From a bacterium (GTDB lineage: Bacteria > SAR324 > JACQKK01), in contig CBDBIG010000003.1 in assembly GCA_965205845.1 (NCBI GenBank), positions 670,305 to 734,304 on the forward strand: a DNA stretch of 64,000 bases. The letters run 5' to 3'. The position numbers were made by a program, and so were the translations under genes. Under the pieces are notes generated by a model. It did no database searches and had not been told where the DNA came from. It worked only from the letters and a program-made list of their open reading frames with translations. Shown piece after piece: positions 14,952 to 35,477 of this stretch. Within the stretch, counting starts at the first letter, position 1. Every line of letters starts with the position of its first letter.

Positions 14952-14968
14952 AACGGCTCGAACAAAGC

Positions 14969-19171: not shown

Positions 19172-19237
19172 GAAAAAAGGGTATTTGAGATTTTAAAAAA
19201 GTTGCCATAAGCCTTATCAACCCGCTTTAAGGGAGAA

Positions 19238-19660
19238 ATGCCTTTGAGTATCGAAAAATTCGCAGCCCAGTTAACCCGAGCCGTACCTTTTGCTGAGCAG
19301 TTTGGCATCCAAATCACCTCTGCCCGAGCGGGGGTGGTGACGGTAGAAATGGCCATCAGCGCACAGCATTTAAGGCCAGGGGGGAGCGTGAGCGGGCCGG
19401 TGATGATGACTATGGTCGATCTGCTTGCCTATGCGTGCATTTTAAACCAACACCCCGAGGCCGTAGAGGCCGTAACGGTGAGCCAAAATAATCAGTTTTT
19501 ATCGCGCCCAACCGTAGCGCCGCTTAAAGGAAAAGGCACGCTTGTAAAAGTTGGAAAAAAGCTTGCTTTTATCGAAATTGTGTTATACCAGTTGTCCATT
19601 GCGAATCCGGTGTGTATGGCTTCGAGTATCTACGCGATGCCCCCAGGTTTGCATGCGTGA
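19238..19660 (+). CDS. PaaI/YbgC-type hot-dog acyl-CoA thioesterase.
   Basis: 140 aa; PaaI-like pattern (GVVTVEM...GGSVSGPVMMTMVDL). Confidence 0.6.
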   Translation: MPLSIEKFAAQLTRAVPFAEQFGIQITSARAGVVTVEMAISAQHLRPGGSVSGPVMMTMVDLLAYACILNQHPEAVEAVTVSQNNQFLSRPTVAPLKGKGTLVKVGKKLAFIEIVLYQLSIANPVCMASSIYAMPPGLHA

Positions 19661-19741
19661 CTGCTTGCGGTGAATGGTACGTTATTAAAAGGGTTCATTT
19701 GAGTGCAATCTCGCGCAATCCTCTCGTTGAAGAAAGTAAAA

Positions 19742-20518
19742 ATGGCTCAAGCGATCGTTCTCGAATCAATTGCCCAAGGGGTGGCAACGCTTACCCTCAA
19801 TCGTCCGCAGGTACTAAACGCCCTTTCCACCCAACTTATTGCCGATTTATGCCAGGCCGTCGAACGGGCAGATGCCAATCCCGAGGTGCGGGTGTTGATT
19901 ATTGGTGGGCAAGGCAAGGCTTTTGCGGCGGGGGCTGACATTAGTGAAATGGCCGACAAATCTTTTGCCCAGGTTTTTCAAGAAGATTTGTTTTCGCATT
20001 TAAACCGAAGCTTTGCTGCTTGTCGCAAACCCGTGATTGCGGCGGTGAACGGCTATGCACTGGGAGGGGGGTGCGAACTGGCGATGCTCTGTGATTTGGT
20101 AATTGCAGCCGAGCACGCCAAGTTTGGCCAGCCCGAAATTAAGCTGGGGACCATTCCTGGGGTGGGAGGTAGCCAAAGGCTTGTTCATGCAGTGGGCAAG
20201 GCCAAGGCCATGGACATGATGCTCAGCGGGCGCATGATGGATGCCCGAGAGGCAGAGAGATGTGGCCTTGTGGCGAGGGTGGTTGCTGCAGAAAGGTTGC
20301 AGATAGAAGCGCAAACCCTAGCGCAAGAAATTGCCGGATATTCGTTGCCGTCTGTGAAAATGGCAAAAGAAGCCGTCAATCAAGCCTTTGAGACTTCCTT
20401 GTCTCAAGGGCTTTTGTTCGAAAAACGCTTGTTTCATTCCACGTTTGCGTTGGAAGACAGGCGCGAAGGGATGCGCGCTTTTGTGGAAAAGCGTCCGCCC
20501 GTGTTTAAAGATTGCTAA
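19742..20518 (+). CDS. Enoyl-CoA hydratase (crotonase).
   Basis: [10 protein letters not shown]...[17 protein letters not shown]...[13 protein letters not shown]. The ORF opens at 19703; the likely start is MAQAIV at 19742. Confidence 0.85.
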
Positions 20519-20553
20519 CGTCTGAAAGCCACAACACCCAAAGGAGCAGCAAA

Positions 20554-22500
20554 ATGGCTTACTCTTATCCAAGCCCCGAAACCTTCGACACCCTGCCCAA
20601 AATGCTGCGAATGCGTGCTAAGTCTACCCCGAAAGGCGTTGCGCTCCGCAAGAAAGACTTTGGGATTTGGGAGCCCACGACATGGATGGAATACCATACC
20701 CAAGTCGCGTATCTCGCGTTGTTTTTATCTTCTCGTGGGTTTGGTAAGGGGGATGTGTTTGCGATGATTGGCGAGAACAACCCGTGGTGGGTAAGTAGCG
20801 AGCTGGCAGCACAATCGGTGGGGTGCATGACCCTGGGCTTTTATCGCGATGGCTTGGACAAAGAGGTGGGCTATTTATTGGGGTATTCCGGGGCAAAAGG
20901 CGTATTTGCTGAAGACCAAGAGCAGGTGGACAAATTGCTGAATGTGGCCGAGCAAATTAACAAGTTAGAACTGATTATTTATGAGGACCCACGCGGTTTA
21001 AGAAACTATGATGACCCAAGGCTTGTAAGCCTAGAGGATGCATTGGCTGAGGGCAAGGTACTTTATGCAAAAGATGAGGGGCGCTATGATCAACTGGTTG
21101 ATGCCGTTGACGGGAGTGAGGTGGCCATTTTGTCTCCCACCTCGGGGACCACTTCCAATCCTAAATTGGCAATGCTCCCCGCCAAGGGTTTTATTCGCCA
21201 TCTTATGGCCTACCTTGAGGTCGAACCCAAAGATGCCAAAGATGAATATGTTTCCATTTTACCCCTGGCGTGGATTATGGGGCAGGTGTACGACGTGGGG
21301 TTCAATTTGGTTTCTGGGATGAAGGTCAATTTTCCTGAAAGCCCAGCCACCGTCATGCAAGACCTGTGTGAAATCGGTCCAACCTTTATGTTGGGTTCAC
21401 CGCGCTTGCTCGAGGAAATGGTTGCCAATATGCGTGCGCGCATCATGGACGCCTCGCGCTTGAATCAATGGGTTTTTAATACCTTTGTAAAGCGCGGTAT
21501 GAAAAAGGTTGCGCTTTCTAAGAGGGATAAATTGGCAGATGTTTGTTTGTTTTCAGCGTTGCGTGATCGCTACGGGTTATCGCGCGTGCGTTCCATGGCG
21601 ACGGGAGGTGCTGCCATGGGCCCCGATACTTTTAAACTGTTTTTGGCTATGGGGCTGCCGCTGCGCCAACTTTACGGTCAAACCGAGCTGATGGGGGGGT
21701 ATACCTCTCAAGTTGGTGATCGAGAAGAACTGGATTTTGTGAGCGTGGGCCCGCCATTTCGCGGGGTAGAGGTGAGGGTGGATGATCCTGATTCGAACGG
21801 GGTGGGGGAGATTGTTTCCAAGCATCAAAATATGTTTGTGGGCTACTACAAAAACGAGGCGGCCTACAAAGCAGATGTGCGCGATGGTTGGATGTACACC
21901 GGGGATGTGGGCTATTTCGATGACAAAAAACGCCTGGTTGTTTTGGATCGCCTCCAGGATATGGTTACCATGGAAGACGGTTCAAGGTTTTCTCCACAAT
22001 ACATTGAAAATAGATTGAAATTTTCACCCCATGTGGGCGAAGCCGTGGTGTTTGGTGAAAAAGAAAGCTACCTGAGTGCCCTGGTTTGTATTCGATTTTC
22101 TGTTGTGGCGAAGTGGGCTGAGAAAAACCAAATCCCTTTTACCTCCTACACCGGCCTTGCTGCCAGTGAGAAAGTGGGTCAGCTGCTCGAAAAAGAGGTG
22201 GAAAAGGTGAATGCCTATTTGCCCACGGCCCATCGCATTGCCAAGTTTATCTTGTTGTTTAAGGAATTGGATGTGGACGATGGCGAAATAACCCATACCC
22301 GCAAGATAAGAAGGGCGGTGGTGAACGAACGTTACAAGGAAATTATTCGAACCTTGTATAGCGATGATTCCGTTGCCAAAATCGATACTGAGGTAACCTA
22401 TGAAGATGGGCGCAAAGGGCGCATTCAAGCTGACTTGAAGGTTCGCTTTCTCGAAGGTGTCAGGACCGAGTCGGGGAAAAAACTCTCCAAAGCGAGTTAA
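20554..22500 (+). CDS. AMP-dependent acyl-CoA synthetase (long/medium-chain fatty-acid--CoA ligase type).
   Basis: AMP-binding motif LSPTSGTTSNPKLAML and GYYKNE...GDVGYFD. The ORF opens at 20512; the likely start is MAYSYP at 20554. Confidence 0.85.
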   Translation: MAYSYPSPETFDTLPKMLRMRAKSTPKGVALRKKDFGIWEPTTWMEYHTQVAYLALFLSSRGFGKGDVFAMIGENNPWWVSSELAAQSVGCMTLGFYRDGLDKEVGYLLGYSGAKGVFAEDQEQVDKLLNVAEQINKLELIIYEDPRGLRNYDDPRLVSLEDALAEGKVLYAKDEGRYDQLVDAVDGSEVAILSPTSGTTSNPKLAMLPAKGFIRHLMAYLEVEPKDAKDEYVSILPLAWIMGQVYDVGFNLVSGMKVNFPESPATVMQDLCEIGPTFMLGSPRLLEEMVANMRARIMDASRLNQWVFNTFVKRGMKKVALSKRDKLADVCLFSALRDRYGLSRVRSMATGGAAMGPDTFKLFLAMGLPLRQLYGQTELMGGYTSQVGDREELDFVSVGPPFRGVEVRVDDPDSNGVGEIVSKHQNMFVGYYKNEAAYKADVRDGWMYTGDVGYFDDKKRLVVLDRLQDMVTMEDGSRFSPQYIENRLKFSPHVGEAVVFGEKESYLSALVCIRFSVVAKWAEKNQIPFTSYTGLAASEKVGQLLEKEVEKVNAYLPTAHRIAKFILLFKELDVDDGEITHTRKIRRAVVNERYKEIIRTLYSDDSVAKIDTEVTYEDGRKGRIQADLKVRFLEGVRTESGKKLSKAS

Positions 22501-22567
22501 CATGCCTTATGCGCGTTTTATGGCGTGATTGTGGGGCGGGTTTTTTAAAAACGGTTTTTAAAAGCGG

Positions 22568-23395
22568 ATGCGGTGTCGTTCAAGTCTTGTTGACCATGAA
22601 AAAGGATTAAAAAAAAGCGTGAGTTCTAAAGAATCTGTAATTGTGCTGGAGAATATTAACCTGCGTTTTGGCGGGGTGAATGCCCTGACTGATGTTTCAT
22701 TTGAGGTACGTAAAGGCGAGGTTTTGGGCATTATTGGTCCTAATGGTGCCGGTAAATCCTCCATGCTTAACATCATCAACGGGTTTTACAAACCCACCAG
22801 TGGTGTCATTACGTATGCAGGAAAAAAACGCAAGGCCATGTCACCCACGTTTGCGGCCAAAAGTGGGATTGCGCGCACGTTTCAGAATATTGCGCTGTTT
22901 CATGGCATGAGTACGCTAGACAACCTCATGACGGGGCGCATTTTGAAAATGAAACAAAGCCTGTTTATGCAAGCCCTCTACATAGGGGCTGCCAAGCGTG
23001 AAGAAATGGAACACCGCAAGGCCGTCGAAAAGGTGATTGACTTTATGGAAATTGAGGCTATTCGCCGCACCCCTGTGGGAAGTTTGCCTTATGGTTTGCA
23101 AAAGCGTGTTGAATTAGGGCGTGCTTTGGCCATGGAACCGCAAATATTATTACTGGATGAGCCTATGGCAGGGATGAGTGTCGAAGAAAAGCAAGACATG
23201 AGTCGCTTTGTTTTGAATGTGAATGACGAGTTTGGCATCACCGTGGTGTTGATTGAGCATGACATGGGCGTTGTGATGGATATTTGCGACCGGGTGGTGG
23301 TCTTGGATTATGGCCGGAAAATTGGTGACGGGAAGCCAGAAGAGGTGAGGCGCAATCAAGAGGTAATCAATGCCTATTTGGGTGTAAGTGCGTAA
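22568..23395 (+). CDS. livG: ABC transporter ATP-binding protein, LivG-like.
   Basis: Walker A GPNGAGKSS, signature LSYGLQKRVEL, Walker B LLLDEP. The real start may be an internal GTG near 22619. Confidence 0.85.
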   Translation: MRCRSSLVDHEKGLKKSVSSKESVIVLENINLRFGGVNALTDVSFEVRKGEVLGIIGPNGAGKSSMLNIINGFYKPTSGVITYAGKKRKAMSPTFAAKSGIARTFQNIALFHGMSTLDNLMTGRILKMKQSLFMQALYIGAAKREEMEHRKAVEKVIDFMEIEAIRRTPVGSLPYGLQKRVELGRALAMEPQILLLDEPMAGMSVEEKQDMSRFVLNVNDEFGITVVLIEHDMGVVMDICDRVVVLDYGRKIGDGKPEEVRRNQEVINAYLGVSA

Positions 23396-23452
23396 CGTGC
23401 GTTTGCAAAGAAGTGGGTCCTATTTTATTCGTTGAGGGAATGGTAAAAACCG

Positions 23453-24451
23453 ATGAGCGTTGTGTTGTTGAACTTTTTGGAAACCGTTTTAAATGGCCTT
23501 GCAGTGGGTATTTTGTACTCATTGGTGGGGCTTGGGTTCGTGCTGATATTTAAGGCTTCTGGGGTGTTTAATTTTGCCCAAGGGGTTTTATCGCTGTTTG
23601 CAGGGCTCACGCTGGTGGGAATGCTTGCAGGGCAGGTACCTTTTGAGCATTTAATACATGAGATTTTTGGCGCAAGGGTGGGGAAATGGGGGGGTGCCCC
23701 CCCATTTATTGCCATTATTTTCACCATGGTGGTGATGGTAGGTTTGGCATGGCTGATTGAAAAATTGGTTTTGCGACATTTAATTAACCAAGCCCCCATC
23801 ATTTTATTTATGGCCACCATTGGGCTGGCTTTTGTGTTAGAGGGCGTTGGGGATTTGATGTGGGGTTCTAATGTGAAACCATTGGATATTGGCTTGCCTA
23901 CAGGAGGATTGTTGGCATTGGAAAACCTCACGCGCGGCTGGGCAGTGGCAGGCAGCGACTATGCTGGGATGTATATGGATGCCCTGGATATTAGTGCTGC
24001 ACTGGTGGCGTTTGCCTTGGTGCTCGTTTTGATGGTTTTTTCGCAATACACCCGTGTAGGACGTGCTTTGAGAGCAGTGGCCGATGACCATCAAGCGGCG
24101 CTTTCTGTGGGGATTTCGCTGCGTTATATTTGGGTGGTGGTGTGGTCTATTTCGGGTTTTGTAGCGCTCGTTGCAGGCATTATGTGGGGATCAAAATCGG
24201 GGGTGCAATTCTCCTTGTCGTTAATCGCCTTAAAAGCATTGCCAGTGCTGATACTGGGTGGTTTTACCTCTATTCCAGGGGCTATTATCGGGGGGTTAAT
24301 CATTGGGGTTGGTGAAAAAGTGGCTGAAATTTACGCAGGCCCGTTCATTGGCGGGGCGATCGAAACCTGGTTTGCATATATGTTAGCGTTGCTTTTTTTA
24401 CTTGTGCGCCCACAAGGGCTGTTTGGCGAGAAAATTATTGAAAGGGTGTGA
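23453..24451 (+). CDS. livH: Branched-chain/hydrophobic acid ABC permease, LivH-like.
   Basis: Polytopic membrane protein of the LivH/BPD_transp_2 family; overlaps the next permease gene. Confidence 0.8.
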   Translation: MSVVLLNFLETVLNGLAVGILYSLVGLGFVLIFKASGVFNFAQGVLSLFAGLTLVGMLAGQVPFEHLIHEIFGARVGKWGGAPPFIAIIFTMVVMVGLAWLIEKLVLRHLINQAPIILFMATIGLAFVLEGVGDLMWGSNVKPLDIGLPTGGLLALENLTRGWAVAGSDYAGMYMDALDISAALVAFALVLVLMVFSQYTRVGRALRAVADDHQAALSVGISLRYIWVVVWSISGFVALVAGIMWGSKSGVQFSLSLIALKALPVLILGGFTSIPGAIIGGLIIGVGEKVAEIYAGPFIGGAIETWFAYMLALLFLLVRPQGLFGEKIIERV

Positions 24452-25535
24452 TGTTGTCATGCTGTATCGTGATACTGGTGAATTTAAGCAGAGTTATATG
24501 AGCGATCAAGCTATCTTTCCCTTGCGGTTGGATCGCATGCTTATCGTGTTCGTTCTGCTGTTTGCCTATTTGGTGGTTCCTTTTGTGATTAACGATTACT
24601 GGGAGAAAAATATTTTTATTCCCTTTATGGTGTTCTCAATGGCAGCCATCGGCTTAAACGTTTTAACGGGTTATTGTGGGCAAGTGTCGCTGGGCACAGG
24701 CGGCTTTATGGCTGTGGGAGCGTATTCGGCTTATAAGTTGGTCACTCTTTTTCCCAACATGAACATTGTGCCCGCCATTTTATTGGCGGGTGCGATCACG
24801 GCCATGGTGGGTATGGTATTTGGTTTGCCTTCGTTACGGATCAAGGGGTTTTACTTGGCCGTGGCTACGCTTGCCTCGCAGTTTTTTATCATATGGCTCG
24901 TTAACAAAGTGCCGTGGTTTTATAATCATTCTGCTACGGGTCAAATCACCATGCCAGAGCGGTTATTGTTCGGGGTTCCTGTTACAGGGCCTGATGCGCC
25001 GCCTTGGGCAACTTACCTGTTTTGCTTGGTGTTTTTAACCGTTTTTGCATTTGCCGCCAAAAATATGGTGCGTTCGCGCGTGGGCCGCAGTTGGATGGCC
25101 GTGCGCGATATGGACATTGCAGCACAGATTATCGGTGTACCATTACTAAAGACCAAAATTTCTGCTTTTGCTGTGAATTCTTTTTATATAGGAATTGCAG
25201 GGGCACTGTATTTTACCGTTTGGTTTGGTGCTGTTGAGCCCACCGAAGCTTTTGGCATTGAGCAGAGCTTTTTTGTGCTGTTTATCATCATCATTGGCGG
25301 GTTGGGTTCCATGTTGGGGTCCTTTTTGGGTGCTGCTTTCATGGTGCTTTTGCCAATTTTTCTCAAAAATTTCATGATTGATGCCCTAAGTTTTACCCCT
25401 GTGACGGCGCGTCACGTTGAGGTGACCATTTTAGGTGCACTCATCATCTTTTTTCTGATTGTCGAACCCAATGGCTTGGCGCGGCTGTGGGCAATTGTCA
25501 AACAAAAATTGAGGAAGTGGCCTTTTCCTTATTAG
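24402..25535 (+). CDS. livM: ABC permease, LivM-like.
   Basis: Polytopic membrane protein of the LivM family. The start may be an internal Met (~24492). Confidence 0.8.
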   Translation: MCAHKGCLARKLLKGCDVVMLYRDTGEFKQSYMSDQAIFPLRLDRMLIVFVLLFAYLVVPFVINDYWEKNIFIPFMVFSMAAIGLNVLTGYCGQVSLGTGGFMAVGAYSAYKLVTLFPNMNIVPAILLAGAITAMVGMVFGLPSLRIKGFYLAVATLASQFFIIWLVNKVPWFYNHSATGQITMPERLLFGVPVTGPDAPPWATYLFCLVFLTVFAFAAKNMVRSRVGRSWMAVRDMDIAAQIIGVPLLKTKISAFAVNSFYIGIAGALYFTVWFGAVEPTEAFGIEQSFFVLFIIIIGGLGSMLGSFLGAAFMVLLPIFLKNFMIDALSFTPVTARHVEVTILGALIIFFLIVEPNGLARLWAIVKQKLRKWPFPY

Positions 25536-25570
25536 GTTTGATGAGGGTCTATAAAAAATAAAACGCAGCA

Positions 25571-25700
25571 AAGTGCTGCAATACCAAGTACATTGGTGCT
25601 GACCCGTGTCGTTGTCGACAAACTGATTGCAGAAGATTGTGCTGCTTATGCAGCAAGAAAACGAAACCAGGGCAAGCCGTTAGTCCTCAGAGTACAAATT
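25571..25700 (+). pseudogene. Degenerate relic of the 3' end of a third substrate-binding-protein gene copy.
   Basis: aagtacattggtgctgacccgtgtcgttgtcgacaaactgattgcagaagattgtgctgcttatgcagcaag... is clearly homologous to the last ~120 bp of the SBP genes (27080-27190 and 28590-28700), but is not in an intact ORF. Confidence 0.6.
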
Positions 25701-25845
25701 TGAGCATGTACATGGGGAGGGCATAAACAAATATTTTTAAAATATGTGTTGCTTGGTGTCTGACTATGTGTTTTTGTAGTGGTGGTCGTTGGTCTTGTGC
25801 TTTTAGAACAGCCTGCCATAACCATTTGAAATAACCGAAAAATTT

Positions 25846-25868
25846 GATATCTCTTCGCCGGAGATATC
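25846..25868. promoter_or_regulatory. Perfect palindrome GATATCTC-N7-GAGATATC, ~20 bp upstream of SBP gene 1: candidate operator or RNA hairpin.
   Basis: Read directly. Repeated (7/8 left arm) at 27349-27371 upstream of SBP gene 2, within a conserved ~190-bp leader. Confidence 0.5.
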
Positions 25869-25889
25869 ACACAAATAAAAGGGGAAAAA

Positions 25890-27197
25890 ATGCTTTTAAA
25901 AACTCTGCGACGTAGCCTTGTGCTTGCCCTCGTCATCTTGCCCATCACGGGCAGCTTGGCCTTGGCGCAGCTCACGTTTCCGTCTTTTTCGTATCGTACA
26001 GGTCCCTATGCACCCAATGGAATTCCAGTTGCGGATGGTTACAGCGACTACTTTACCTTGATAAACGCCCGTGACGGTGGAATTAATGGTCAAAAAGCGG
26101 ATGTTGTTGAGTGTGAAACGGGGTACAATACCCAGCGTGGGGTCGAGTGCTACGAAAAAGTGAAAGGGAAGAATCCCTTGATAATTCACCCTTTGTCAAC
26201 GGGTATAACATACCAACTCATTCCAAAAGCGACGGCGGATAATATTCCCATCCACTCTATGGGCTATGGGCGCACTTCTGCCGCCAACGGCAAGGTGTTC
26301 AAATATGTATTCAGCTACCCAGGCACCTACTGGGATGCAGCCTCGATCATCGTCAAGCACATTGGCAAAGAAGAAGGCGGAATGAGGAAACTCAAGGGTA
26401 AGAAAATTACGCTGATTTATCATAACTCTGCCTATGGCAAAGAACCCATACGCACCTTGCAAGTGTTGAGCAAAAAACATGGTTTCAAGCTGGATTTATT
26501 GCCCGTTGATCACCCTGGTCAAGAGCAAAGGTCTACATGGCTTAAAATACGCCGTTCGCGCCCTCGCTATTTGGTAATGTGGGGTTGGGGTGTCATGAAC
26601 CAGGTTGCCATCAAGGAAGCCGCTTCGATTCGCTTCCCCATGAAGCGTTTTATTGGCGTTTGGTGGTCTGGGTCTGAAAATGATGTGATCCCAGCGGGTA
26701 AGGGTGCCCATGGCTATAAAGCGATCACCTTCCACGATGTGGGTAAGAACTACCCCGTCTACGACGACCTCAAAAAGCATGTTTATGACAAGGGCAAAGC
26801 AGCAGGCGGTGGTGATAACACGGGTACTGTGCTCTATAATCGTGGGATGCTGGCAGCCGTGTGGGCGGTTGAAGCGGCGCGCAATGCCATGAAAATTCAC
26901 AAAACCAAAAAAATCACCCCAGCGATGATGCGTGATGGGATGGAAACATTGCACGTAGGTGAGAAGCGCCTAAAGGAATTGGGGATGGCTGGATTTACCG
27001 TAACCGTGAAAAACAGTTGCGCTAGTCATGGTGGGCCTGGCCTTGGGGCGATCCAGCAATGGAATGCAAACACCAAGCAATGGAAGCTCATTACCGGGTA
27101 TGTTGGTGCTGACCGTAGCGTTGTCGACAAGCTAATCGCAGAAGATTCTGCGGCGTATGCAAAAGAAAACAAAATCAAGGTACGCAGTTGTTCTTAA
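25890..27197 (+). CDS. ABC transporter periplasmic substrate-binding protein (LivK-like family, ~435-aa class often paired with aryl-/acyl-CoA ligases), copy 1.
   Basis: Signal peptide and type-1 PBP fold; part of the LivGHM...F operon. Confidence 0.85.
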   Translation: MLLKTLRRSLVLALVILPITGSLALAQLTFPSFSYRTGPYAPNGIPVADGYSDYFTLINARDGGINGQKADVVECETGYNTQRGVECYEKVKGKNPLIIHPLSTGITYQLIPKATADNIPIHSMGYGRTSAANGKVFKYVFSYPGTYWDAASIIVKHIGKEEGGMRKLKGKKITLIYHNSAYGKEPIRTLQVLSKKHGFKLDLLPVDHPGQEQRSTWLKIRRSRPRYLVMWGWGVMNQVAIKEAASIRFPMKRFIGVWWSGSENDVIPAGKGAHGYKAITFHDVGKNYPVYDDLKKHVYDKGKAAGGGDNTGTVLYNRGMLAAVWAVEAARNAMKIHKTKKITPAMMRDGMETLHVGEKRLKELGMAGFTVTVKNSCASHGGPGLGAIQQWNANTKQWKLITGYVGADRSVVDKLIAEDSAAYAKENKIKVRSCS

Positions 27198-27348
27198 GCG
27201 ATAGGAACAAAGGTATGCCTACAAGGGTCAATGCGAAAAGTTTCGGAATGTTGCTTGACGCTTGGCCTTTGTGTTTTTGTGGTGGGGTTTGCAGGTTTGT
27301 GCTTTTCGAACAGCCCTGCCATAACCATTTCAAATAATTGAGAAATGT

Positions 27349-27371
27349 GGTATCTCTTCGCCGGAGATATC
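27349..27371. promoter_or_regulatory. Second copy of the palindromic element (GGTATCTC-N7-GAGATATC) upstream of SBP gene 2.
   Basis: Read directly; same position relative to the start codon as at 25846. Confidence 0.45.
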
Positions 27372-27393
27372 ACACAGATAAAAGAAGACAGAA

Positions 27394-28701
27394 ATGCCCT
27401 TAAAGACTCTTCAGCGTGGCCTTGTGCTTGCCCTCGTCATCTTGCCCATCACGGGCAGCTTGGCCTTGGCGCAGCTCGTGTTTCCGTCTTTCGCGTATCG
27501 TACAGGCCCTTATGCGCCTAATGGAATTCCAGCTGCGGATGGTTTTCTCGACTACTTCGCCCTGATAAATGCCCGTGACGGTGGGATTAATGGCCAAAAA
27601 GCCGAAGTCATCAGCTGTGAAACGGGCTACAATTCCCAGCGTGGAGTCGAGTGCTACGAAAAAGTCAAAGCAAAGAATCCCTTGGTAATTCACCCTTTGT
27701 CAACGGGTCTTACTTACCAACTCATTCCAAAAGCGACGGCGGATAAGATTCCCATCCATTCTATGGGTTATGGGCGTACTTCTGCCGCCAACGGCAAGGT
27801 ATTCAAATATGTATTCAGCTTCCCGGGTACCTACTGGGATGCAGCCTCGATCATCGTCAAGTATATTGGCAGAGAAGAAGGCGGGATGAAGAAACTCAAG
27901 GGCAAGAAAATTTCGCTAATTTATCATAACTCTGCCTATGGCAAAGAGCCCATACGCACCTTACAAGTGCTGAGCAAAAAGCATGGCTTCAAGCTGGATT
28001 TATTGCCCGTTGATCACCCTGGTCAAGAGCAGAGGTCTACATGGCTTAAGATACGCCGTTCGAACCCTCGCTATTTGGTAATATGGGGATGGGGTGTTAT
28101 GAATCAGGTAGCCCTCAGGGAAGCCGCTTCGATTCGCTTCCCCATGAAGCGTTTTATTGGCGTTTGGTGGTCTGGATCTGAAAATGATGTGATCCCAGCG
28201 GGTAAAGGCGCCCATGGCTATAAAGCGATTACCTTCCACGGTGTGGGTAAGAACTACCCTGTCTACGACGATCTCGAAAAGTATGTTTATGACAAGGGCA
28301 AAGCAGCAGGCGATGGTGACAACATGGGTACTGTGCTCTATAATCGTGGAATGCTGTCGGCTATGTGGTCTGTTGAGGGGGCACGCAGCGCCATGAAAAT
28401 TCACAAAACTAAAAAAATCACCCCAGCGATGATGCGTGATGGGATGGAAGCATTGCATGTAGGTGAGAAGCGCCTAAAGGAATTGGGGATGGCTGGATTT
28501 ACCGTAACCGTGAAAAACAGTTGCGCTAGACATGGTGGGCCTGGTCTTGGGGCGATCCAGCAATGGAATGCAAACACCAAGCAATGGAAGCTCATTACCG
28601 AGTACATCGGTGCTGACCGTGTTGTTGTCGACAAACTGGTCGCAGAAGATTCTGCGGCTTATGCAAAAGAAAACAAAATCGAGGTACGCAGTTGTTCTTA
28701 A
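27394..28701 (+). CDS. ABC transporter substrate-binding protein, tandem paralog (copy 2, ~88% identical to copy 1).
   Basis: Near-colinear translation with copy 1 (MPLKTLQRGLVLALVILPITGSLALAQL...). Confidence 0.85.
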   Translation: MPLKTLQRGLVLALVILPITGSLALAQLVFPSFAYRTGPYAPNGIPAADGFLDYFALINARDGGINGQKAEVISCETGYNSQRGVECYEKVKAKNPLVIHPLSTGLTYQLIPKATADKIPIHSMGYGRTSAANGKVFKYVFSFPGTYWDAASIIVKYIGREEGGMKKLKGKKISLIYHNSAYGKEPIRTLQVLSKKHGFKLDLLPVDHPGQEQRSTWLKIRRSNPRYLVIWGWGVMNQVALREAASIRFPMKRFIGVWWSGSENDVIPAGKGAHGYKAITFHGVGKNYPVYDDLEKYVYDKGKAAGDGDNMGTVLYNRGMLSAMWSVEGARSAMKIHKTKKITPAMMRDGMEALHVGEKRLKELGMAGFTVTVKNSCARHGGPGLGAIQQWNANTKQWKLITEYIGADRVVVDKLVAEDSAAYAKENKIEVRSCS

Positions 28702-28964
28702 GCGATAGGGATAAAGGTACGCCTACAAGGGCCAATGCGAGAAGTTTCGGAATGTTGCTTGACGCTTGGCCTTTGTGTTTTTGTGGTGGGGTTTGCAGGG
28801 CTGTGTTTTCCGGAAAATTTGTTACAGTTTCGCTTTTGTTGCGCTGATACATGGCATTGAAACCATCCCCTCCTCTTTATAATTTTAAAAACCACCGTTT
28901 AACCTATATCACTACTGATTAACATCAACCAGGAGCAACAATTTTGGTTTCTCAAGCTTCAAAT

Positions 28965-29783
28965 ATGGCAACAGGGAAAAATAACCAACAGACGCTTGCA
29001 GTAAACAATATCGAGGTGGTGTACAACCATGTCATCCTTGTACTAAAGGGGGTAAGTTTATCTGTTGAAAAAGGAAGCATTACCGCATTGTTGGGAGGCA
29101 ATGGTGCGGGTAAAACCACCACCTTAAAAGCCATTTCAAATTTGCTGGGTACAGAGCGAGGCGAAGTTACCAAGGGAAGCATTTTATATGCTGGGGAGGA
29201 TGTACACCATCGGAGTCCCGAAGATTTGGTGAAACGTGGTCTGATTCAAATTATGGAAGGTAGGCATTGTTTTGAGCACCTTAGTGTGGAAGAAAACCTG
29301 TTAACGGGATGCTACACCCGCACCCAAAATCGCGGTGAAATTAAAAGCGATTTGGAACGCATTTATACATACTTCCCCTTGCTTAAAAGTCGGCGTAAAT
29401 CCCAGGCAGGTTATACCTCTGGTGGTGAACAGCAAATGACTGCCATTGCCCGTGCCTTAATGAGCAGACCCACGGTTGTTTTGCTCGATGAACCCTCCAT
29501 GGGCTTGGCGCCACAGCTGGTGGAACAAATTTTTGAGATTGTGGCAGAAATTAACCAACGCGAAGGCGTGACAGTGTTGGTTGCAGAACAAAACACCAAT
29601 GTGGCATTGCGCTATGCCAGTTATGGGTACATCCTCGAAAGTGGTCGCGTGGTGATGGATGGCAATGCCACGGATCTCAGCAATAATGAAGATGTTAAAG
29701 AATTTTATCTCGGTATTTCGGGTGAAGGCAGACGTTCTTACCGTGATGTGAAACAATACCGCCGCCGCAAGCGCTGGTTGTGA
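28965..29783 (+). CDS. livF: ABC transporter ATP-binding protein, LivF-like.
   Basis: Walker A GGNGAGKTT, signature TSGGEQQMTAIARAL, Walker B VLLDEP. The ORF opens at TTG 28944; the likely start is ATG 28965 (MATGKN). Confidence 0.85.
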   Translation: MATGKNNQQTLAVNNIEVVYNHVILVLKGVSLSVEKGSITALLGGNGAGKTTTLKAISNLLGTERGEVTKGSILYAGEDVHHRSPEDLVKRGLIQIMEGRHCFEHLSVEENLLTGCYTRTQNRGEIKSDLERIYTYFPLLKSRRKSQAGYTSGGEQQMTAIARALMSRPTVVLLDEPSMGLAPQLVEQIFEIVAEINQREGVTVLVAEQNTNVALRYASYGYILESGRVVMDGNATDLSNNEDVKEFYLGISGEGRRSYRDVKQYRRRKRWL

Positions 29784-29829
29784 GAGTTGACAAATTTTAA
29801 AACCTTATTTGTGAAAGGAGTCCCTATCT

Positions 29830-31071
29830 ATGGCTTTTTTTGATTCAAAAGAAACGCGCTCGATGGACCAAAGAACATCGGAGCAATTACAGCAGCTTAA
29901 AGAAATTATTACCCACGCAAAGAAAAACTCTCTCCAGCAAGCAAAACGTTTGCGTGGCTTCCATCCCAGCACATTGAAGGGCGTGGAGGATTTGCAGTCC
30001 TTCCCGGTGTTGTACAAGGCCGATCTTGCCAAAGTCCAAGCAGAAAATCCCCCTTTTGGCGATTTAAACGCCGCAGCTGCTGAAGAATTGGGGCGTATTT
30101 ATCGTTCTCCTAACGGAGTGGTGGACGTAGAGGGTCCAAATGCGGGTGACTGGTGGCGTACTGCCCGTGCTTTGTACGCGGCGGGATTGCGCAAAGGCGA
30201 TTTGGTGCACAACAGTTTTTCTTACCACATTACCCCTGCAGGGATGATGTTGGACAGTGGAGCACGGGCATTAGGGTGCACGGTATTTCCGGCGGGTCCG
30301 AGCCATACGAGCGTACAGGCCGAAATGTTGAGTTATTTGCGTGCAAGTGCCTTTGTTGGTGTGCCTGAAACTTTGAATATAGTGCTTACAAAAGCGGATG
30401 AGTTGGGGTATGATGTGAGCTCTCTTACCAGAGCCCTTGTGTCAGGTGGCCCTTTGTTTCCGTCTGTGCGCCGGATGTTGGACGCCCGTGTCATTCAGGT
30501 GCGCGAGGCCTATGCTACGGCTGATGTGGGGCTGATATCTTATGAGAGCGGCGTCGAGGATGGCATGATGGTCGATGAGGATGTGCTGGTTGAAATTGTG
30601 CGTCCGGGCACGGGTGATCTTGTGCCGGTAGGAGAGGTGGGTGAGGTTGTGGTAACCACGCTTACCTCGTGGCAAAAGCCGATGATCCGTTTTGCTACTG
30701 GGGACCTTTCTGCCGTGCTACCGGGGCAAAGTGCTTGTGGTCGCACCAATATCCGCCTTAAAGGCTGGCTTGGACGCGCCGACCAAACCACCAAAGTGCG
30801 CGGTATGTTTGTCTATCCAGCGCATGTAGATGTCGTGCTGAAGAGATTGAAATTGACTGGCCGTGCTCGCCTCGAAATCGATCGCAAAGGAGAACGTGAT
30901 ACGATGGTGCTCAAGGTGGAACATACCCAGCCTGATTCGAGTTTGGCACAAGCACTGGCTGATTCGCTGCAAGCGGTGACGGGCTTGCGTACCGTCGCCC
31001 AAGTTGTGACACAAGGCAGTTTAGCCAACGATGGCAAAATTATTGACGACTTACGCGATTATGAGAATTAA
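29830..31071 (+). CDS. Phenylacetate-CoA ligase (PaaK)/F390-synthetase-family adenylate-forming enzyme, copy 1.
   Basis: 413 aa; PaaK-family architecture (N-terminal ANL domain, YATADVG, C-terminal ACT-like lid region). Confidence 0.75.
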   Translation: MAFFDSKETRSMDQRTSEQLQQLKEIITHAKKNSLQQAKRLRGFHPSTLKGVEDLQSFPVLYKADLAKVQAENPPFGDLNAAAAEELGRIYRSPNGVVDVEGPNAGDWWRTARALYAAGLRKGDLVHNSFSYHITPAGMMLDSGARALGCTVFPAGPSHTSVQAEMLSYLRASAFVGVPETLNIVLTKADELGYDVSSLTRALVSGGPLFPSVRRMLDARVIQVREAYATADVGLISYESGVEDGMMVDEDVLVEIVRPGTGDLVPVGEVGEVVVTTLTSWQKPMIRFATGDLSAVLPGQSACGRTNIRLKGWLGRADQTTKVRGMFVYPAHVDVVLKRLKLTGRARLEIDRKGERDTMVLKVEHTQPDSSLAQALADSLQAVTGLRTVAQVVTQGSLANDGKIIDDLRDYEN

Positions 31072-31078
31072 GCCAGCA

Positions 31079-31277
31079 TGGAATTGAGCGGTCTTCGAGT
31101 CCTGATTACAGGTGCTGGTTCGGGGCTGGGCGAAGCCAGTGCTGGACACCTTGCTTTTTCAAGGCGCAAAACCTTGTTTGCTCGACATGGATGCCGTGCG
31201 TGTTCAAAAGGTGGCCAGTCGGTTAAACGCCCCCCACGCTGTGGCAGATGTCTGTGATGAGGGTGCCGTTCAACAAG
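31079..31277 (+). pseudogene. Truncated duplicate of the 5' end of the SDR gene (about the first 62 codons), fused at the duplication junction to the 3' end of livF sequence.
   Basis: atggaattgagcggtcttcgagtcctgattacaggtgct...ggtgccgttcaacaag is ~95% identical to 32592-32790, then switches to taccgcaagcgctggttgtgagag (= 29760-29783). Confidence 0.8.
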
Positions 31278-31343
31278 TACCGCAAGCGCTGGTTGTGAGA
31301 GTTGACAAATTTTAAAACCTTATTTGTGAAAGGAGTCCCTACT

Positions 31344-32585
31344 GTGGCCTTTTTTGATTCAAAAGAAACGCGCTCGATGGACCAAAGAACATCGGAGCAA
31401 TTACAGCAGCTTAAAGAAATTATTACCCACGCAAAGAAAAACTCTCTCCAGCAAGCAAAACGTTTGCGTGGCTTCCATCCCAGCACATTGAAGGGCGTGG
31501 AGGATTTGCAGTCCTTCCCAGTGTTGTACAAGGCCGATCTTGCCAAAGTCCAAGCAGAAAATCCCCCTTTTGGCGATTTAAACGCCGCAGCTGCTGGAGA
31601 ATTGGGGCGTATTTATCGTTCTCCTAACGGAGTGGTGGACGTAGAGGGTCCAAATGCGGGTGACTGGTGGCATTATGCCCGTGCTTTGTACGCAGCGGGA
31701 TTGCGCAAAGGTGATTTGGTGCACAACAGTTTTTCTTACCACCTGACTCCCGGAGGGATGATGTTGGACAGTGGAGCACGGGCATTAGGGTGCACGGTAT
31801 TTCCGGCGGGTCCGGGCAATACGAGCGTACAGGCCGAAATGTTGAGTTATTTGCGTGCAAGTGCCTTTGTTGGTGTGCCTGAAACTTTGAACGTCGTGCT
31901 CAAAAAAGCGGATGAGTTGGGGTATGATGTGAGCTCTCTTACCAGAGCCCTTGTGTCAGGTGGCCCTTTGTTTCCGTCTGTGCGCCGGATGTTGGACGCC
32001 CGTGTCATTCAGGTGCGCCAGGCCTATGCTACGGCTGATGTGGGGGTGATCTCTTATGAGAGCGGCGTCGAGGATGGCATGGTGGTCGATGAGGATGTAC
32101 TGGTTGAAATTGTGCGTCCGGGCACGGGTGATCCTATGCCGGTAGGAGAGGTGGGTGAGGTTGTGGTAACCACGCTTACCTCGTGGCAAAAGCCGATGAT
32201 CCGTTTTGCTACTGGGGACCTTTCTGCCGTGCTACCGGGGCAAAGTGCTTGTGGTCGCACCAATATCCGCCTTAAAGGCTGGCTTGGACGCGCCGACCAA
32301 ACCACCAAAGTGCGCGGTATGTTTGTCTATCCAGCGCATGTAGATGTCGTGCTGAAGAGATTGAAATTGACTGGCCGTGCTCGCCTCGAAATCGATCGCA
32401 AAGGAGAACGTGATACGATGGTGCTCAAGGTGGAACATACCCAGCCTGATTCGAGTTTGGCACAAGCACTGGCTGATTCGCTGCAAGCGGTGACGGGCTT
32501 GCGTACCGTCGCCCAAGTTGTGACACAAGGCAGTTTAGCCAACGATGGCAAAATTATTGACGACTTACGCGATTATGAGAATTAA
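31344..32585 (+). CDS. PaaK-like CoA ligase, copy 2 (recent duplicate; probable GTG start).
   Basis: ~97% identical to copy 1. The ATG of copy 1 is replaced by 'actgtggcc'. The ORF is open upstream to 31302 through the junction. Confidence 0.7.
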   Translation: MAFFDSKETRSMDQRTSEQLQQLKEIITHAKKNSLQQAKRLRGFHPSTLKGVEDLQSFPVLYKADLAKVQAENPPFGDLNAAAAGELGRIYRSPNGVVDVEGPNAGDWWHYARALYAAGLRKGDLVHNSFSYHLTPGGMMLDSGARALGCTVFPAGPGNTSVQAEMLSYLRASAFVGVPETLNVVLKKADELGYDVSSLTRALVSGGPLFPSVRRMLDARVIQVRQAYATADVGVISYESGVEDGMVVDEDVLVEIVRPGTGDPMPVGEVGEVVVTTLTSWQKPMIRFATGDLSAVLPGQSACGRTNIRLKGWLGRADQTTKVRGMFVYPAHVDVVLKRLKLTGRARLEIDRKGERDTMVLKVEHTQPDSSLAQALADSLQAVTGLRTVAQVVTQGSLANDGKIIDDLRDYEN

Positions 32586-32591
32586 GCCAGC

Positions 32592-33341
32592 ATGGAATTG
32601 AGCTGCCTCCGAGTCCTGATTACAGGTGCTGGTTCGGGGCTGGGCGAAGCCAGTGCTGGACACCTTGCTTCCCAAGGCGCAAAACCTTGTTTGCTCGACA
32701 TGGATGCCGTGCGTGTTCAAAAGGTGGCCAGTCGGTTAAACGCCCCCCACGCTGTGGCAGATGTCTGTGATGAGGGTGCCGTTCAACAAGCACTACAGAC
32801 ATTTGGTCGTGTTGATGCACTGGTTAATTGTGCGGGCATTGCCCCCGCGCGTAAGGTGTTGGGCTCGCGTGGAACCCACCCGCTGGAGGATTTTCAGAAA
32901 GCGATTGCCATCAACTTGGTGGGGAGCTTTAATGTGGCAAGGCTTGCCGCACAGATGATGGCGCAAAACACCCCCAATGCGCATGGAGAAAGGGGAGTTA
33001 TCATTCACACCGCCTCGATTGCTGCTTTTGATGGGCAAATTGGCCAAGCAGCCTATGCGGCCTCGAAAGGGGGTATTGTGAGTATGACTTTGCCCATGGC
33101 AAGGGAATTGGCCAAGCAAGGCATACGGGTATTAAGCATTGCCCCAGGTCTCTTTAAAACGGCCATGATCGAAGTTTTTTCCAAAGAAATCCAGCAAACC
33201 CTTGTACAAACAGCATTGTTTCCAGCACGCTTGGGTGCCCCGGGGGAGTACGCCATGTTGGTGCAAAGCATTCTTACCAACCCCATGCTTAATGGCACCA
33301 CCATTCGTCTTGATGGCGCGGTGCGCCTGCCTCCCCAATAG
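32592..33341 (+). CDS. Short-chain dehydrogenase/reductase, 3-hydroxyacyl-CoA dehydrogenase type-2-like.
   Basis: TGAGSGLG Rossmann motif, catalytic YAASK, 249 aa. Confidence 0.8.
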   Translation: MELSCLRVLITGAGSGLGEASAGHLASQGAKPCLLDMDAVRVQKVASRLNAPHAVADVCDEGAVQQALQTFGRVDALVNCAGIAPARKVLGSRGTHPLEDFQKAIAINLVGSFNVARLAAQMMAQNTPNAHGERGVIIHTASIAAFDGQIGQAAYAASKGGIVSMTLPMARELAKQGIRVLSIAPGLFKTAMIEVFSKEIQQTLVQTALFPARLGAPGEYAMLVQSILTNPMLNGTTIRLDGAVRLPPQ

Positions 33342-33355
33342 CCTATCATACCTTT

Positions 33356-34534: not shown

Positions 34535-34925
34535 AATTTCCTATGCATATCTCTGTGTCAGAGCGGTCGATAGCGGTGCGACAAAAATCAAGAAATGATG
34601 GCGTCCCTTAAAGGAAGGTGCACCATTTTGAAAGTATTTGAGTGTGCCCTAACGTACACAGATTTTGTGCTATCGGAGATGGTTGGGCAACCATGACGCC
34701 AGTGCACTGTGACTGTGCCACCACCCCTTGTGTATACATTGGTGGTCGATTCTACAAAGCGCATCCCGCACTTTTTGACACCTTTGACGAGGGGGTTGCT
34801 GTGTGGCATGGCAGCAGGTGGGTGCACGCCCTTTGGGGCTGTTGCTTTCTCGGAAGGCAAAAAATCCAAGGGGCAATCAAGGCAGATGTAAATACTGGGG
34901 CCAGGCTACTCCACCCATGGTGCAA

Positions 34926-35456: not shown

Positions 35457-35477
35457 GGCGGCCCATGCCCTAAGTGC

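What the first reader, a model, noticed from the sequence alone, without database searches (positions are those of the whole stretch)
29771..32783. Very recent 1506-bp tandem duplication creating a second paaK-like gene and a chimeric livF-3'/SDR-5' junction
The unit (3' end of livF, leader, paaK-like gene, first ~190 bp of the SDR gene) is repeated head-to-tail with ~97% identity. The junction (31079-31292) fuses a truncated SDR 5' end to the livF stop region. Copy 2's ATG is mutated to GTG but the frame stays open upstream through the junction. This is a gene amplification caught early, possibly selected for higher CoA-ligase dosage.
Basis: seen in the sequence. Interest (0 to 1): 0.55.

Follow-up and report, generated by a model that had tools for sequence, protein, structure and literature searches.

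The report
Tandem duplicate of a CoA-ligase-like gene
A 1.5-kb piece of a bacterial acid-uptake operon is copied head to tail, giving two intact, slightly different copies of a PaaK-like ligase gene next to an older duplication of the transporter's binding-protein gene; it is a real but ordinary case of gene duplication and divergence.

Summary
The duplication is real. Window 29765-31279 and 31280-32790 are head-to-tail copies, 97.7% identical (33-34 substitutions by the alignment used, two 1-nt indels; period 1515, not 1506). The unit holds the last 19 nt of the livF-like gene, a 46-nt leader with its ribosome-binding site, a 413-codon PaaK-like gene and the first 199 nt of the SDR gene.

The frame upstream of copy 2 is closed by the copied livF TGA, 15 codons before the GTG start.

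This does not look like an amplification caught early:
- dS is about 0.03-0.04.
- The copies differ at 14 residues, all within residues 85-265. Some flank a predicted acyl-pocket position.
- Indels occur only outside the coding sequence.
- The orphan SDR fragment is already frameshifted.
- The substitutions are strongly clustered.

An older tandem duplication (90.6%) of the binding-protein gene, plus a relic of a third copy, lies just upstream.

In homologous cassettes from other Proteobacteria, the ligase-like gene is single in 66 of 66 loci and the binding-protein gene in 61 of 61.

Best reading: a maintained, lineage-specific duplication and divergence of the operon's two substrate-recognising parts. 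The protein is PaaK-like, not PaaK. Interest is low to moderate.

The parts
28944..29783 (+). livF-like ABC ATPase gene. Its last 19 nt (29765-29783, including the TGA at 29781-29783) form the start of the duplicated unit.
   Evidence: ORF; Pfam ABC_tran and NCBIfam LivF/UrtE-like hits; start of homology.
29765..31279 (+). Duplicated unit, copy 1 (1515 nt, including the 2-nt TA at the junction).
   Evidence: Self-blastn at 97.69%; base-by-base list of differences.
29784..29829 (+). Leader 1, with the Shine-Dalgarno sequence AAGGAG at 29815-29820, 9 nt before the ATG.
   Evidence: Read from the sequence.
29830..31071 (+). PaaK-like gene, copy 1 (413 aa, ATG start).
   Evidence: ORF; Pfam AMP-binding and AMP-binding_C_2; PaaK models below cut-off; PDB 2y27 PaaK1 at E 9e-42.
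31078..31277 (+). Orphan 5' fragment of the SDR gene. It is a pseudogene piece with a +1 T frameshift at 31155 and stops after 59 codons.
   Evidence: Alignment to 32592-32790; translation.
31278..31298 (+). Novel junction: TA filler followed by the copied last 19 nt of livF, with its TGA at 31296-31298. That TGA closes the copy-2 reading frame.
31280..32790 (+). Duplicated unit, copy 2.
31299..31343 (+). Leader 2, with AAGGAG at 31330-31335, 8 nt before the GTG.
   Evidence: Read from the sequence.
31344..32585 (+). PaaK-like gene, copy 2 (413 aa, GTG start). The mechanically listed ORF begins at TTG 31302.
   Evidence: It is identical to database protein P0001.
32592..33341 (+). Intact SDR gene, a homologue of type II 3-hydroxyacyl-CoA dehydrogenase. 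Its first 199 nt are the end of unit copy 2.
25764..28810 (+). Older tandem duplication (period about 1503 nt, 90.6%) carrying two binding-protein genes: SBP1 at 25890-27197 and SBP2 at 27394-28701.
25575..25763 (+). Degraded relic of the 3' end of a third SBP gene plus its downstream spacer. It lies directly after livM.
   Evidence: blastn at 84-86% to the SBP 3' ends; three-way alignment.
20512..25535 (+). The single-copy rest of the cassette: FadD-like ligase (20512-22500), livG-like (22568-23395), livH-like (23453-24451) and livM-like (24402-25535).
   Evidence: the gene order is conserved in other genomes.
18005..20518 (+). Acyl-CoA dehydrogenase (18005-19171) and enoyl-CoA hydratase (19703-20518), upstream on the same strand.

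Best explanation
This is a genuine, lineage-specific tandem segmental duplication inside an operon for uptake and catabolism of a carboxylic acid.

How it formed (inferred): an illegitimate join with little or no microhomology linked a point 199 nt into the SDR gene to a point 19 nt before the end of the livF-like gene. That repeated 1515 nt, comprising the leader, the ribosome-binding site and the whole PaaK-like gene. Both copies sit in the same transcription unit, and each has its own Shine-Dalgarno sequence.

What happened next: the leftover SDR 5' piece is decaying, while both ligase-like ORFs have stayed intact. The two copies have diverged at 14 residues in the central part of the N-terminal domain. 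The duplication has therefore persisted long enough to be past the unstable amplification stage, which implies it is maintained by selection (inferred).

Proposed function (inferred): together with the older duplication of the periplasmic binding-protein gene just upstream, the operon has doubled exactly the two parts that recognise the free acid, namely the binding protein and the activating enzyme. It has kept one copy of the permease, the ATPases and the beta-oxidation enzymes. The most likely result is a broadened or split substrate range, i.e. paralog sub- or neofunctionalisation.

Shown here: the duplication, its anatomy, intact ORFs, non-random divergence, and single-copy state in all other cassettes examined.
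Inferred: co-transcription, maintenance by selection, the difference in specificity, and the enzymatic activity itself.
For: - Duplication and junction.
- Both ORFs are intact. The two indels both lie in the 273 non-coding or pseudogene nt and none in the 1242 coding nt (Fisher P = 0.03).
- The SDR fragment is frameshifted.
- dS is 0.03-0.04 and dN/dS 0.42-0.62, against 0.18-0.31 for the older SBP pair.
- All 14 amino-acid differences fall within residues 85-265 (P about 2e-4).
- Differences 134 (I/L) and 137 (A/G) flank T135. T135 aligns with Tyr164 of 2-hydroxyisobutyryl-CoA synthetase, an acyl-pocket residue according to PMC8388817, and with a Phe in the SYGYGLFTGG segment of PaaK1.
- Difference 226 lies just before the A5-like motif YATAD.
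- Outgroups show that both copies carry derived changes: 7 in copy 1, 4 in copy 2 and 3 ambiguous.
- In homologous cassettes the PaaK-like gene is single in 66 of 66 loci and the SBP gene in 61 of 61. Both duplications are therefore derived here.
- The SBP array shows repeated expansion and contraction: two copies plus a relic of a third.
- No terminator-like or promoter-like excess occurs inside the unit.
- Precedents: tandem SBP paralogs RPA3723-3725 with different ligand profiles serving one ABC transporter (PMC3223731); PaaK1/PaaK2 paralogs with different pockets and kinetics (PMC4498308, PMC3417372).
- Established knowledge: kilobase-scale tandem duplications are lost at high rates by homologous recombination unless selected (the work of Roth, Andersson and co-workers).
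Against: - No close relative carries this operon. The next protein is only 55% identical, and the one related contig breaks synteny before the operon. Neither fixation nor single-copy ancestry within the lineage could be checked.
- No reads are available, so the assembly cannot be verified.
- The pocket mapping rests on sequence alignment only.
- dN/dS below 1 does not show positive selection. The difference in nonsynonymous-to-synonymous ratio from the SBP pair is not significant (P = 0.25).
- Substitution density is the same in coding and non-coding parts, 2.2-2.25%. That also fits relaxed constraint.
- Copy 1 has Ser at a position that is Gly in 77 of 79 relatives and Leu where 70 of 79 have Pro. 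These could be damage rather than adaptation.
- The substitution clusters mix synonymous and nonsynonymous changes. That points to a mutational or recombinational process rather than site-by-site selection.
Confidence: 0.55

Rival explanations
1. Dosage amplification caught early. Under this view the second copy exists only to raise the level of the ligase-like protein, and the sequence differences are incidental.
For: Identity is high, at 97.7%. Both copies lie in one operon and both keep their ribosome-binding site. A 468-nt stretch, including the whole C-terminal domain, is identical.
Against: There are 34 substitutions and 2 indels, with dS of 0.03-0.04. That is far more than a fresh amplification would carry. 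The 14 residue changes are confined to residues 85-265. There are only two copies. Copy 2 has GTG instead of ATG, which is usually a weaker start. The neighbouring SBP pair shows that this locus retains duplicates for long periods (dS 0.19-0.28).
Confidence: 0.15
2. A redundant duplicate drifting toward loss. Under this view the duplication is neutral or only formerly useful, and one copy, more likely copy 1, is accumulating damaging changes under relaxed constraint.
For: dN/dS is raised, at 0.42-0.62. Substitution density in the coding sequence equals that in the non-coding parts. Copy 1 has G158S at a site that is Gly in 77 of 79 relatives, P264L (Pro in 70 of 79) and Q226E (Gln in 68 of 79).
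Against: Neither 413-codon ORF has a stop or a frameshift, whereas the 273 nt outside the coding sequence carry two indels (P = 0.03). Copy 2 also carries derived changes at conserved sites, R110H and V265M. The 7-to-4 asymmetry is not significant (P = 0.55). An unselected 1.5-kb tandem repeat should collapse by recombination long before reaching 2.3% divergence (established knowledge).
Confidence: 0.2
3. An older duplication kept similar by gene conversion. Under this view the duplication could be as old as the SBP one, most differences have been erased by conversion between copies, and the remaining clusters are islands that escaped conversion.
For: The pattern is mosaic. There is a 468-nt identical run (P about 1e-4), and 14 of 33 spacings between substitutions are 3 nt or less where 2.2 are expected (P < 1e-5). 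The SBP pair is much more even.
Against: The non-functional SDR fragment and the leader should diverge freely, yet they are only about 2-3% different. No long stretch exceeds about 4% divergence. Islands of 5 changes in 11 nt are too dense to be leftovers of roughly 10% divergence.
Confidence: 0.07
4. Assembly artefact. Under this view a single-copy region was written twice, or two strain variants were joined in tandem.
For: No reads are available. Only one assembly, an 877,621-bp contig, holds these proteins.
Against: Artefactual repeats are normally identical. Here there are 36 differences, a specific novel junction with a 2-nt filler, and a frameshift in the orphan fragment. A second, independent and much more diverged tandem duplication with a relic lies next to it. 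The genome also holds several other tandem arrays.
Confidence: 0.03

Closest known systems
PaaK1/PaaK2 of Burkholderia cenocepacia (PDB 2Y27/2Y4N and 2Y4O), two phenylacetate-CoA ligase paralogs in one genome
   Same: They have the same fold family as the proteins here: E 9e-42 to 4e-43 over residues 7-394. They are two paralogs of the acid-activating enzyme while the rest of the pathway is single copy. The paralogs differ in pocket size, Km and substrate range (PMC4498308, PMC3417372).
   Different: They are 69% identical and lie on different chromosomes, rather than 96.6% identical in tandem. They are true PaaK enzymes with the SSGTTGKPT P-loop and sit among paa genes. The proteins here fall below the PaaK cut-offs, lack the P-loop and have no paaABCDE nearby.
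RPA3723-RPA3725, tandem binding-protein paralogs of a Rhodopseudomonas palustris HAAT-type ABC transporter next to the pim operon
   Same: Adjacent paralogous Peripla_BP_6-type binding proteins share one transporter. They have different fatty-acid and dicarboxylate binding profiles, interpreted as broadening the uptake range, and lie next to an acyl-CoA ligase and beta-oxidation genes (PMC3223731).
   Different: Those paralogs are 60-71% identical, so much older. Here the SBP pair is 90% identical and the ligase-like gene is duplicated as well.
Conserved proteobacterial cassette: FadD-like, livG, livH, livM, SBP, livF, PaaK-like
   Same: Gene order and domains match the window in about 60 of the 80 loci fetched, at 42-75% protein identity.
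   Different: Every other cassette examined has one SBP (61 of 61) and one PaaK-like gene (66 of 66). I found no functional characterisation of the cassette in the literature searches.
Transient tandem amplifications and the innovation-amplification-divergence model (Roth, Andersson and co-workers; from my own knowledge)
   Same: A head-to-tail duplication formed at a junction with little or no homology, inside an operon. It includes a whole gene and leaves a chimeric junction.
   Different: Laboratory amplifications have identical copies, are often present in more than two copies, and are unstable. Here there are two copies with 2.3% divergence and intact frames, which corresponds to the divergence stage rather than the amplification stage.

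Membership tests
Tandem segmental duplication | Two adjacent direct copies in the same orientation with no unrelated spacer | tested here: met
   29765-31277 aligns with 31280-32790 at 97.69% over 1513 columns. Only 2 nt (TA) lie between the copies.
Tandem segmental duplication | A novel junction that joins the distal end of the unit to its proximal start | tested here: met
   SDR codon-66 region ...CAACAAG, then TA, then CCGCAAGCGCTGGTTGTGA from the livF 3' end.
Tandem segmental duplication | Single-copy state in related genomes | tested here: inconclusive
   The gene is single in 66 of 66 homologous cassettes, but these are only 42-51% identical. No close relative with this operon exists in the collections.
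Tandem segmental duplication | Support from reads: junction-spanning reads and doubled depth | not testable with these tools
   No read data are available.
PaaK, phenylacetate-CoA ligase (NCBIfam TIGR02155 / NF041878) | Score at or above the curated family cut-off | tested here: not met
   150-178 bits against cut-offs of 646.3 and 700.
PaaK, phenylacetate-CoA ligase (NCBIfam TIGR02155 / NF041878) | ANL motif A3, the phosphate-binding P-loop ((S/T)SG(S/T)TGxPK) | tested here: not met
   RSPNGVVDVEG aligns with PaaK1 ASSGTTGKPTVVG. The consensus over 79 relatives is SPGPIFEPEG.
PaaK, phenylacetate-CoA ligase (NCBIfam TIGR02155 / NF041878) | The other ANL core motifs: A5-like, A7 Asp, A8 hinge and A10 Lys | tested here: met
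   YATAD, FATGDL, GRADQTTKVRG and NDGKII are conserved in both copies and across the family. The A5 Glu is replaced by Asp.
PaaK, phenylacetate-CoA ligase (NCBIfam TIGR02155 / NF041878) | Genomic association with paaABCDE ring-epoxidase genes | tested here: not met
   None among the window ORFs scanned (not every ORF was scanned). The neighbours are an ABC transporter, an acyl-CoA dehydrogenase, an enoyl-CoA hydratase, a type II 3-hydroxyacyl-CoA dehydrogenase homologue, a 3-hydroxyisobutyrate dehydrogenase and a 3-hydroxyisobutyryl-CoA hydrolase.
PaaK-like branch of the ANL superfamily (homology only) | Significant full-length sequence similarity to solved PaaK-type structures | tested here: met
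   2y27 E 9e-42 (residues 7-394), 4r1l E 7e-40 and 6hdw E 7e-34. Pfam AMP-binding and AMP-binding_C_2 both above cut-off.
HAAT-type (LivFGHM plus binding protein) ABC uptake cassette with two ligase-like genes | Conserved gene order and domains | tested here: met
   Pfam ABC_tran x2, BPD_transp_2 x2 and Peripla_BP_6. The same order occurs in about 60 of 80 loci.
Paralog sub- or neofunctionalisation (divergence stage of IAD) | Both copies intact and under constraint | tested here: met
   Two 413-codon ORFs with no stop or frameshift. Indels occur only outside the coding sequence (P = 0.03). dN/dS is below 1.
Paralog sub- or neofunctionalisation (divergence stage of IAD) | Differences located in specificity-determining positions | tested here: inconclusive
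   Differences 134 and 137 flank the residue aligned to HCL Tyr164. Difference 226 lies next to A5. All 14 differences fall in residues 85-265. This rests on sequence mapping only, with no coordinates.
Paralog sub- or neofunctionalisation (divergence stage of IAD) | Measurably different activity or substrate range | not testable with these tools
   Needs enzyme and binding assays.

The most novel reading that the evidence does not exclude
The operon may record two successive rounds of duplication and divergence of exactly its two substrate-recognising parts: the binding protein first and the PaaK-like activating enzyme later. In every other genome examined the cassette is strictly single-copy. 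The ligase paralogs may be diverging through short multi-nucleotide patch replacements rather than independent point mutations. There are nine clusters of 2-5 changes within 12 nt or less, and they mix synonymous and nonsynonymous changes. This resembles short-patch templated or illegitimate recombination.

A further unexcluded twist is that the whole cassette-associated PaaK-like family lacks the ANL P-loop. It may therefore not be a conventional adenylating CoA ligase at all.
Probability: 0.12. Interest if true: 0.5.

Novelty: new member of a known kind. Interest (0 to 1): 0.25.

Why it matters
If both pairs of paralogs differ in specificity, this operon would be a compact natural example of how an uptake-and-activation pathway widens its substrate range. 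It copies only the parts that touch the substrate. The three ages visible in one locus give a time series: the relic third SBP, the 90.6% SBP pair and the 97.7% ligase pair. That makes a good test case for duplication-divergence models and for learning which residues set specificity in an uncharacterised, very widespread PaaK-like family. Otherwise it is an ordinary tandem duplication of local interest only.

Tried and rejected
- **Exact look-ups of both ligase copies in public assemblies** returned nothing, although the proteins are in the protein collection from one 877,621-bp contig. No independent assembly was available.
- **Search for close relatives.** The best non-self protein is 55% identical. 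The 80 genome loci are 42-51% identical. One related contig (L081, PpsA 86%) is syntenic only for window 269-12572 and does not reach the operon. Single-copy ancestry in close strains could not be tested.
- **Donor search for the nine substitution clusters.** Each allele plus or minus 4 nt was searched on both strands of the window with at most 1 mismatch. No convincing donor was found.
- **Quasi-palindrome (template-switch) origin of the clusters.** Some derived alleles form perfect short palindromes, for example CCCTGCAGGG in copy 1. But 7 of 18 cluster alleles overlap a stem of 5 bp or more, against a 24% background. By my own estimate that is not significant; the P = 0.014 printed was computed for 9 of 18, a miscount. 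Rejected as unsupported.
- **Promoter and terminator scan of 17000-35500.** Counts were at or below shuffle expectation, so nothing usable emerged.
- **Rfam scan of the window.** It found only tRNA-Phe, with no riboswitch or leader element.
- **TRF** did not report the 1.5-kb repeats because its longest period is 500.
- **Literature searches for the FadD-like/liv/PaaK-like cassette** found no functional study.
- **The apparent second SBP in L047** is one gene split into two HSPs.
- **Asymmetry of derived changes between copies** (7 against 4) is not significant.

Full report
**1. Observation**

A self-comparison of the window aligns 29765-31277 with 31280-32790 at 97.69% identity over 1513 columns, with 33 mismatches and 2 gaps. 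The repeat finder gives the same picture, with spacings of 1513-1515. TRF reports nothing because its longest period is 500.

A base-by-base alignment lists 34 substitutions and two 1-nt indels. The unit consists of:
- the last 19 nt of the livF-like ORF with its TGA (29765-29783)
- a 46-nt leader with AAGGAG at 29815-29820
- a 413-codon PaaK-like ORF (29830-31071)
- 6 nt of spacer
- the first 199-200 nt of the SDR gene (31078-31277)

The junction reads ...GTTCAACAAG|TA|CCGCAAGCGCTGGTTGTGA. Depending on how the TA(C) is assigned, the microhomology is 0-5 nt. The livF side may also have lost two CGC repeats. There is no long repeat or mobile element at the ends, so the join was illegitimate rather than homologous (inference).

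**2.

- Copy 2 does start with GTG (31344) where copy 1 has ATG, and it keeps the Shine-Dalgarno sequence (31330-31335).
- The frame is not open through the junction. The copied livF TGA at 31296-31298 is in the copy-2 frame, 15 codons upstream of the GTG. This is why the mechanical ORF begins at TTG 31302.
- The orphan SDR fragment carries a +1 T at 31155 and terminates after 59 codons. It is a decaying remnant, not part of a fusion.

**3. What the genes are**

The surrounding genes are, in order:

| Gene | Coordinates |
|---|---|
| acyl-CoA dehydrogenase | 18005-19171 |
| enoyl-CoA hydratase | 19703-20518 |
| FadD-like AMP-binding ligase | 20512-22500 |
| livG-like | 22568-23395 |
| livH-like | 23453-24451 |
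| livM-like | 24402-25535 |
| two Peripla_BP_6 binding proteins | 25890-27197 and 27394-28701 |
| livF-like | 28944-29783 |
| two PaaK-like genes | 29830-31071 and 31344-32585 |
| SDR | 32592-33341 |
| MFS protein | 33356-34534 |

The SDR is a close homologue of type II 3-hydroxyacyl-CoA dehydrogenases (4o5o, E 1e-77). Upstream lie a 3-hydroxyisobutyrate-dehydrogenase-type gene and a 3-hydroxyisobutyryl-CoA-hydrolase-type gene (14061-16060). No paaABCDE-type domain appeared among the window ORFs I scanned. The setting is therefore uptake, activation and beta-oxidation-like catabolism of a carboxylic acid, perhaps a short or branched one (inference).

**4. PaaK-like, not PaaK**

Both copies hit the PaaK models at 150-178 bits, against cut-offs of 646-700. 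They align over nearly their full length with PaaK1/PaaK2, a Bacteroides PaaK-type enzyme and 2-hydroxyisobutyryl-CoA synthetase (E 1e-34 to 1e-43).

The ANL P-loop is absent. RSPNGVVDVEG stands where PaaK1 has SSGTTGKPT, and 79 relatives share the consensus SPGPIFEPEG. The later motifs are conserved: YATAD, ATGDL, GRADQTTKVRG and NDGK. The FadD-like partner has a normal TSGTTSNPK. CoA-ligase activity of the duplicated gene is thus assumed, not shown.

**5. A second duplication that was not reported**

25764-27307 aligns with 27267-28810 at 90.6%, giving two 435-aa binding proteins that differ at 43 residues. Their dN/dS is 0.18-0.31 and dS 0.19-0.28. The differences are spread fairly evenly.

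Directly after livM, 25575-25763 is a degraded copy of an SBP 3' end plus its spacer. The array once had at least three units, or it has been remodelled more than once.

**6. Comparison with other genomes**

The genome-collection scan returned 80 loci at 42-51% protein identity. About 60 of them have the same order: FadD-like, livG, livH, livM, SBP, livF, PaaK-like.
- With at least 1.6 kb on either side, 66 of 66 have a single PaaK-like gene.
- 61 of 61 have a single SBP between livM and livF. The apparent double in L047 is one gene in two HSPs.

Both duplications are therefore peculiar to this lineage.

Close relatives are lacking. The nearest ligase homologue is 55% identical. Both copies occur only on one 877,621-bp contig. 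The one related contig found through PpsA (86%) is syntenic only up to guaA. PpsA relatives are named as SAR324, Lambdaproteobacteria or Deltaproteobacteria MAGs at 57-63%. The cassette proteins, by contrast, resemble those of Alpha-, Beta- and Gammaproteobacteria.

**7. Pattern of divergence**

For the ligase pair, dN is 0.017-0.020, dS 0.031-0.040 and dN/dS 0.42-0.62, with 14 residue differences. The differences are far from random:
- An identical run of 468 nt (30623-31089) has P about 1e-4.
- 14 of the 33 spacings are 3 nt or less, against 2.2 expected (P < 1e-5).
- All 14 residue changes lie between residues 85 and 265 (P about 2e-4).
- The clusters mix synonymous and nonsynonymous changes. 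For example, 30229-30239 has five changes in 11 nt: I to L, two silent changes, and A to G.

That mixing suggests patch-wise events rather than independent point mutations. No donor was found in the window, and a quasi-palindrome origin was not supported. The clustering remains unexplained.

Both indels lie outside the coding sequence (P = 0.03). Outgroup polarisation gives derived changes in both copies:
- Copy 1: positions 85, 134, 158, 159, 226, 247 and 264, including G158S at a site that is Gly in 77 of 79 relatives.
- Copy 2: positions 110, 184, 235 and 265.

Positions 134 and 137 flank T135. T135 aligns with Tyr164 of 2-hydroxyisobutyryl-CoA synthetase, named as an acyl-pocket residue in PMC8388817. 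Position 226 precedes the A5-like motif.

**8. Interpretation**

The amount of divergence, the decayed orphan fragment, the intact frames and the older neighbouring duplication all fit a maintained duplicate in its divergence phase better than a fresh dosage amplification. The two duplicated functions are the ones that bind the free acid, which suggests a widening or splitting of substrate range. There are precedents in the RPA3723-3725 binding proteins (PMC3223731) and in PaaK1/PaaK2 (PMC4498308, PMC3417372).

Relaxed constraint on a redundant copy cannot be excluded, because substitution density is equal in coding and non-coding parts. Gene conversion probably explains the identical 3' tract. 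It is unlikely to hide a much older origin, since the non-functional parts are only 2-3% diverged. An assembly artefact is unlikely given the 36 differences and the specific junction, but this cannot be tested without reads.

**9. Verdict**

The duplication is a real feature, correctly spotted. One anatomical claim is wrong, and the age and purpose reading is too simple. It is a new instance of a well-known process. Interest is low to moderate. The clustered substitutions and the family-wide loss of the P-loop are the only unusual points.

Noticed in passing
window 25764-28810 and 25575-25763: An older tandem duplication (90.6%, period about 1503 nt) gives two 435-aa Peripla_BP_6 binding-protein genes. 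A degraded relic of a third SBP 3' end lies directly after livM. The finding did not mention it.
   Followed up: yes
window 29830-31071 and 31344-32585; L001-L080 homologues: The whole cassette-associated PaaK-like family lacks the ANL P-loop. Its consensus is SPGPIFEPEG where PaaK1 has SSGTTGKPT. It keeps the A5-like, A7, A8 and A10 motifs. The FadD-like gene of the same cassette has a normal P-loop. Whether these proteins adenylate at all is open.
   Followed up: partly
window 30006-30622 and 31090-31159, against copy 2: Substitutions between the copies fall in nine tight clusters of 2-5 changes within 12 nt or less, mixing silent and replacement changes. They are separated by long identical stretches. 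No donor sequence was found in the window, and a hairpin-templated origin was not supported.
   Followed up: partly
window 1297-1628 (inside the minus-strand ORF 254-2752): Four perfect 84-nt (28-codon) tandem repeats lie inside a Peripla_BP_6-containing 832-aa ORF. The orthologue on the related contig L081 is 727 aa, i.e. 105 aa shorter, which is about the length of the repeat array.
   Followed up: partly
window 39949-40475; also 1-258, 7150-7347, 16564-16794 and 57138-57224: Several tandem arrays have periods that are not multiples of three: 53 nt x 9.9, 95 nt x 2.7, 47 nt x 4.2, 80 nt x 2.9 and 43 nt x 2. Identity is 90-98%. The genome seems prone to tandem repetition.
   Followed up: no
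window 52736-52915 and 54721-54899: A dispersed direct repeat of about 180 nt at 95.6% identity, with copies about 2 kb apart, flanking ORFs 52860-54459.
   Followed up: no
window 12573-34534, compared with L081 1-6130: Synteny with the only related contig (PpsA 86% identical) ends right after guaA. The catabolic region that contains the operon is not at this position in the relative. Its proteins are most similar to those of Alpha-, Beta- and Gammaproteobacteria, whereas PpsA groups with SAR324- and Lambdaproteobacteria-type MAGs. This may indicate horizontal acquisition.
   Followed up: partly
L022: One distant locus has ACAD, ECH, PaaK-like and SDR genes in front of the transporter genes. 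The PaaK-like/SDR adjacency and the accessory beta-oxidation genes therefore recur elsewhere in a different order.
   Followed up: no
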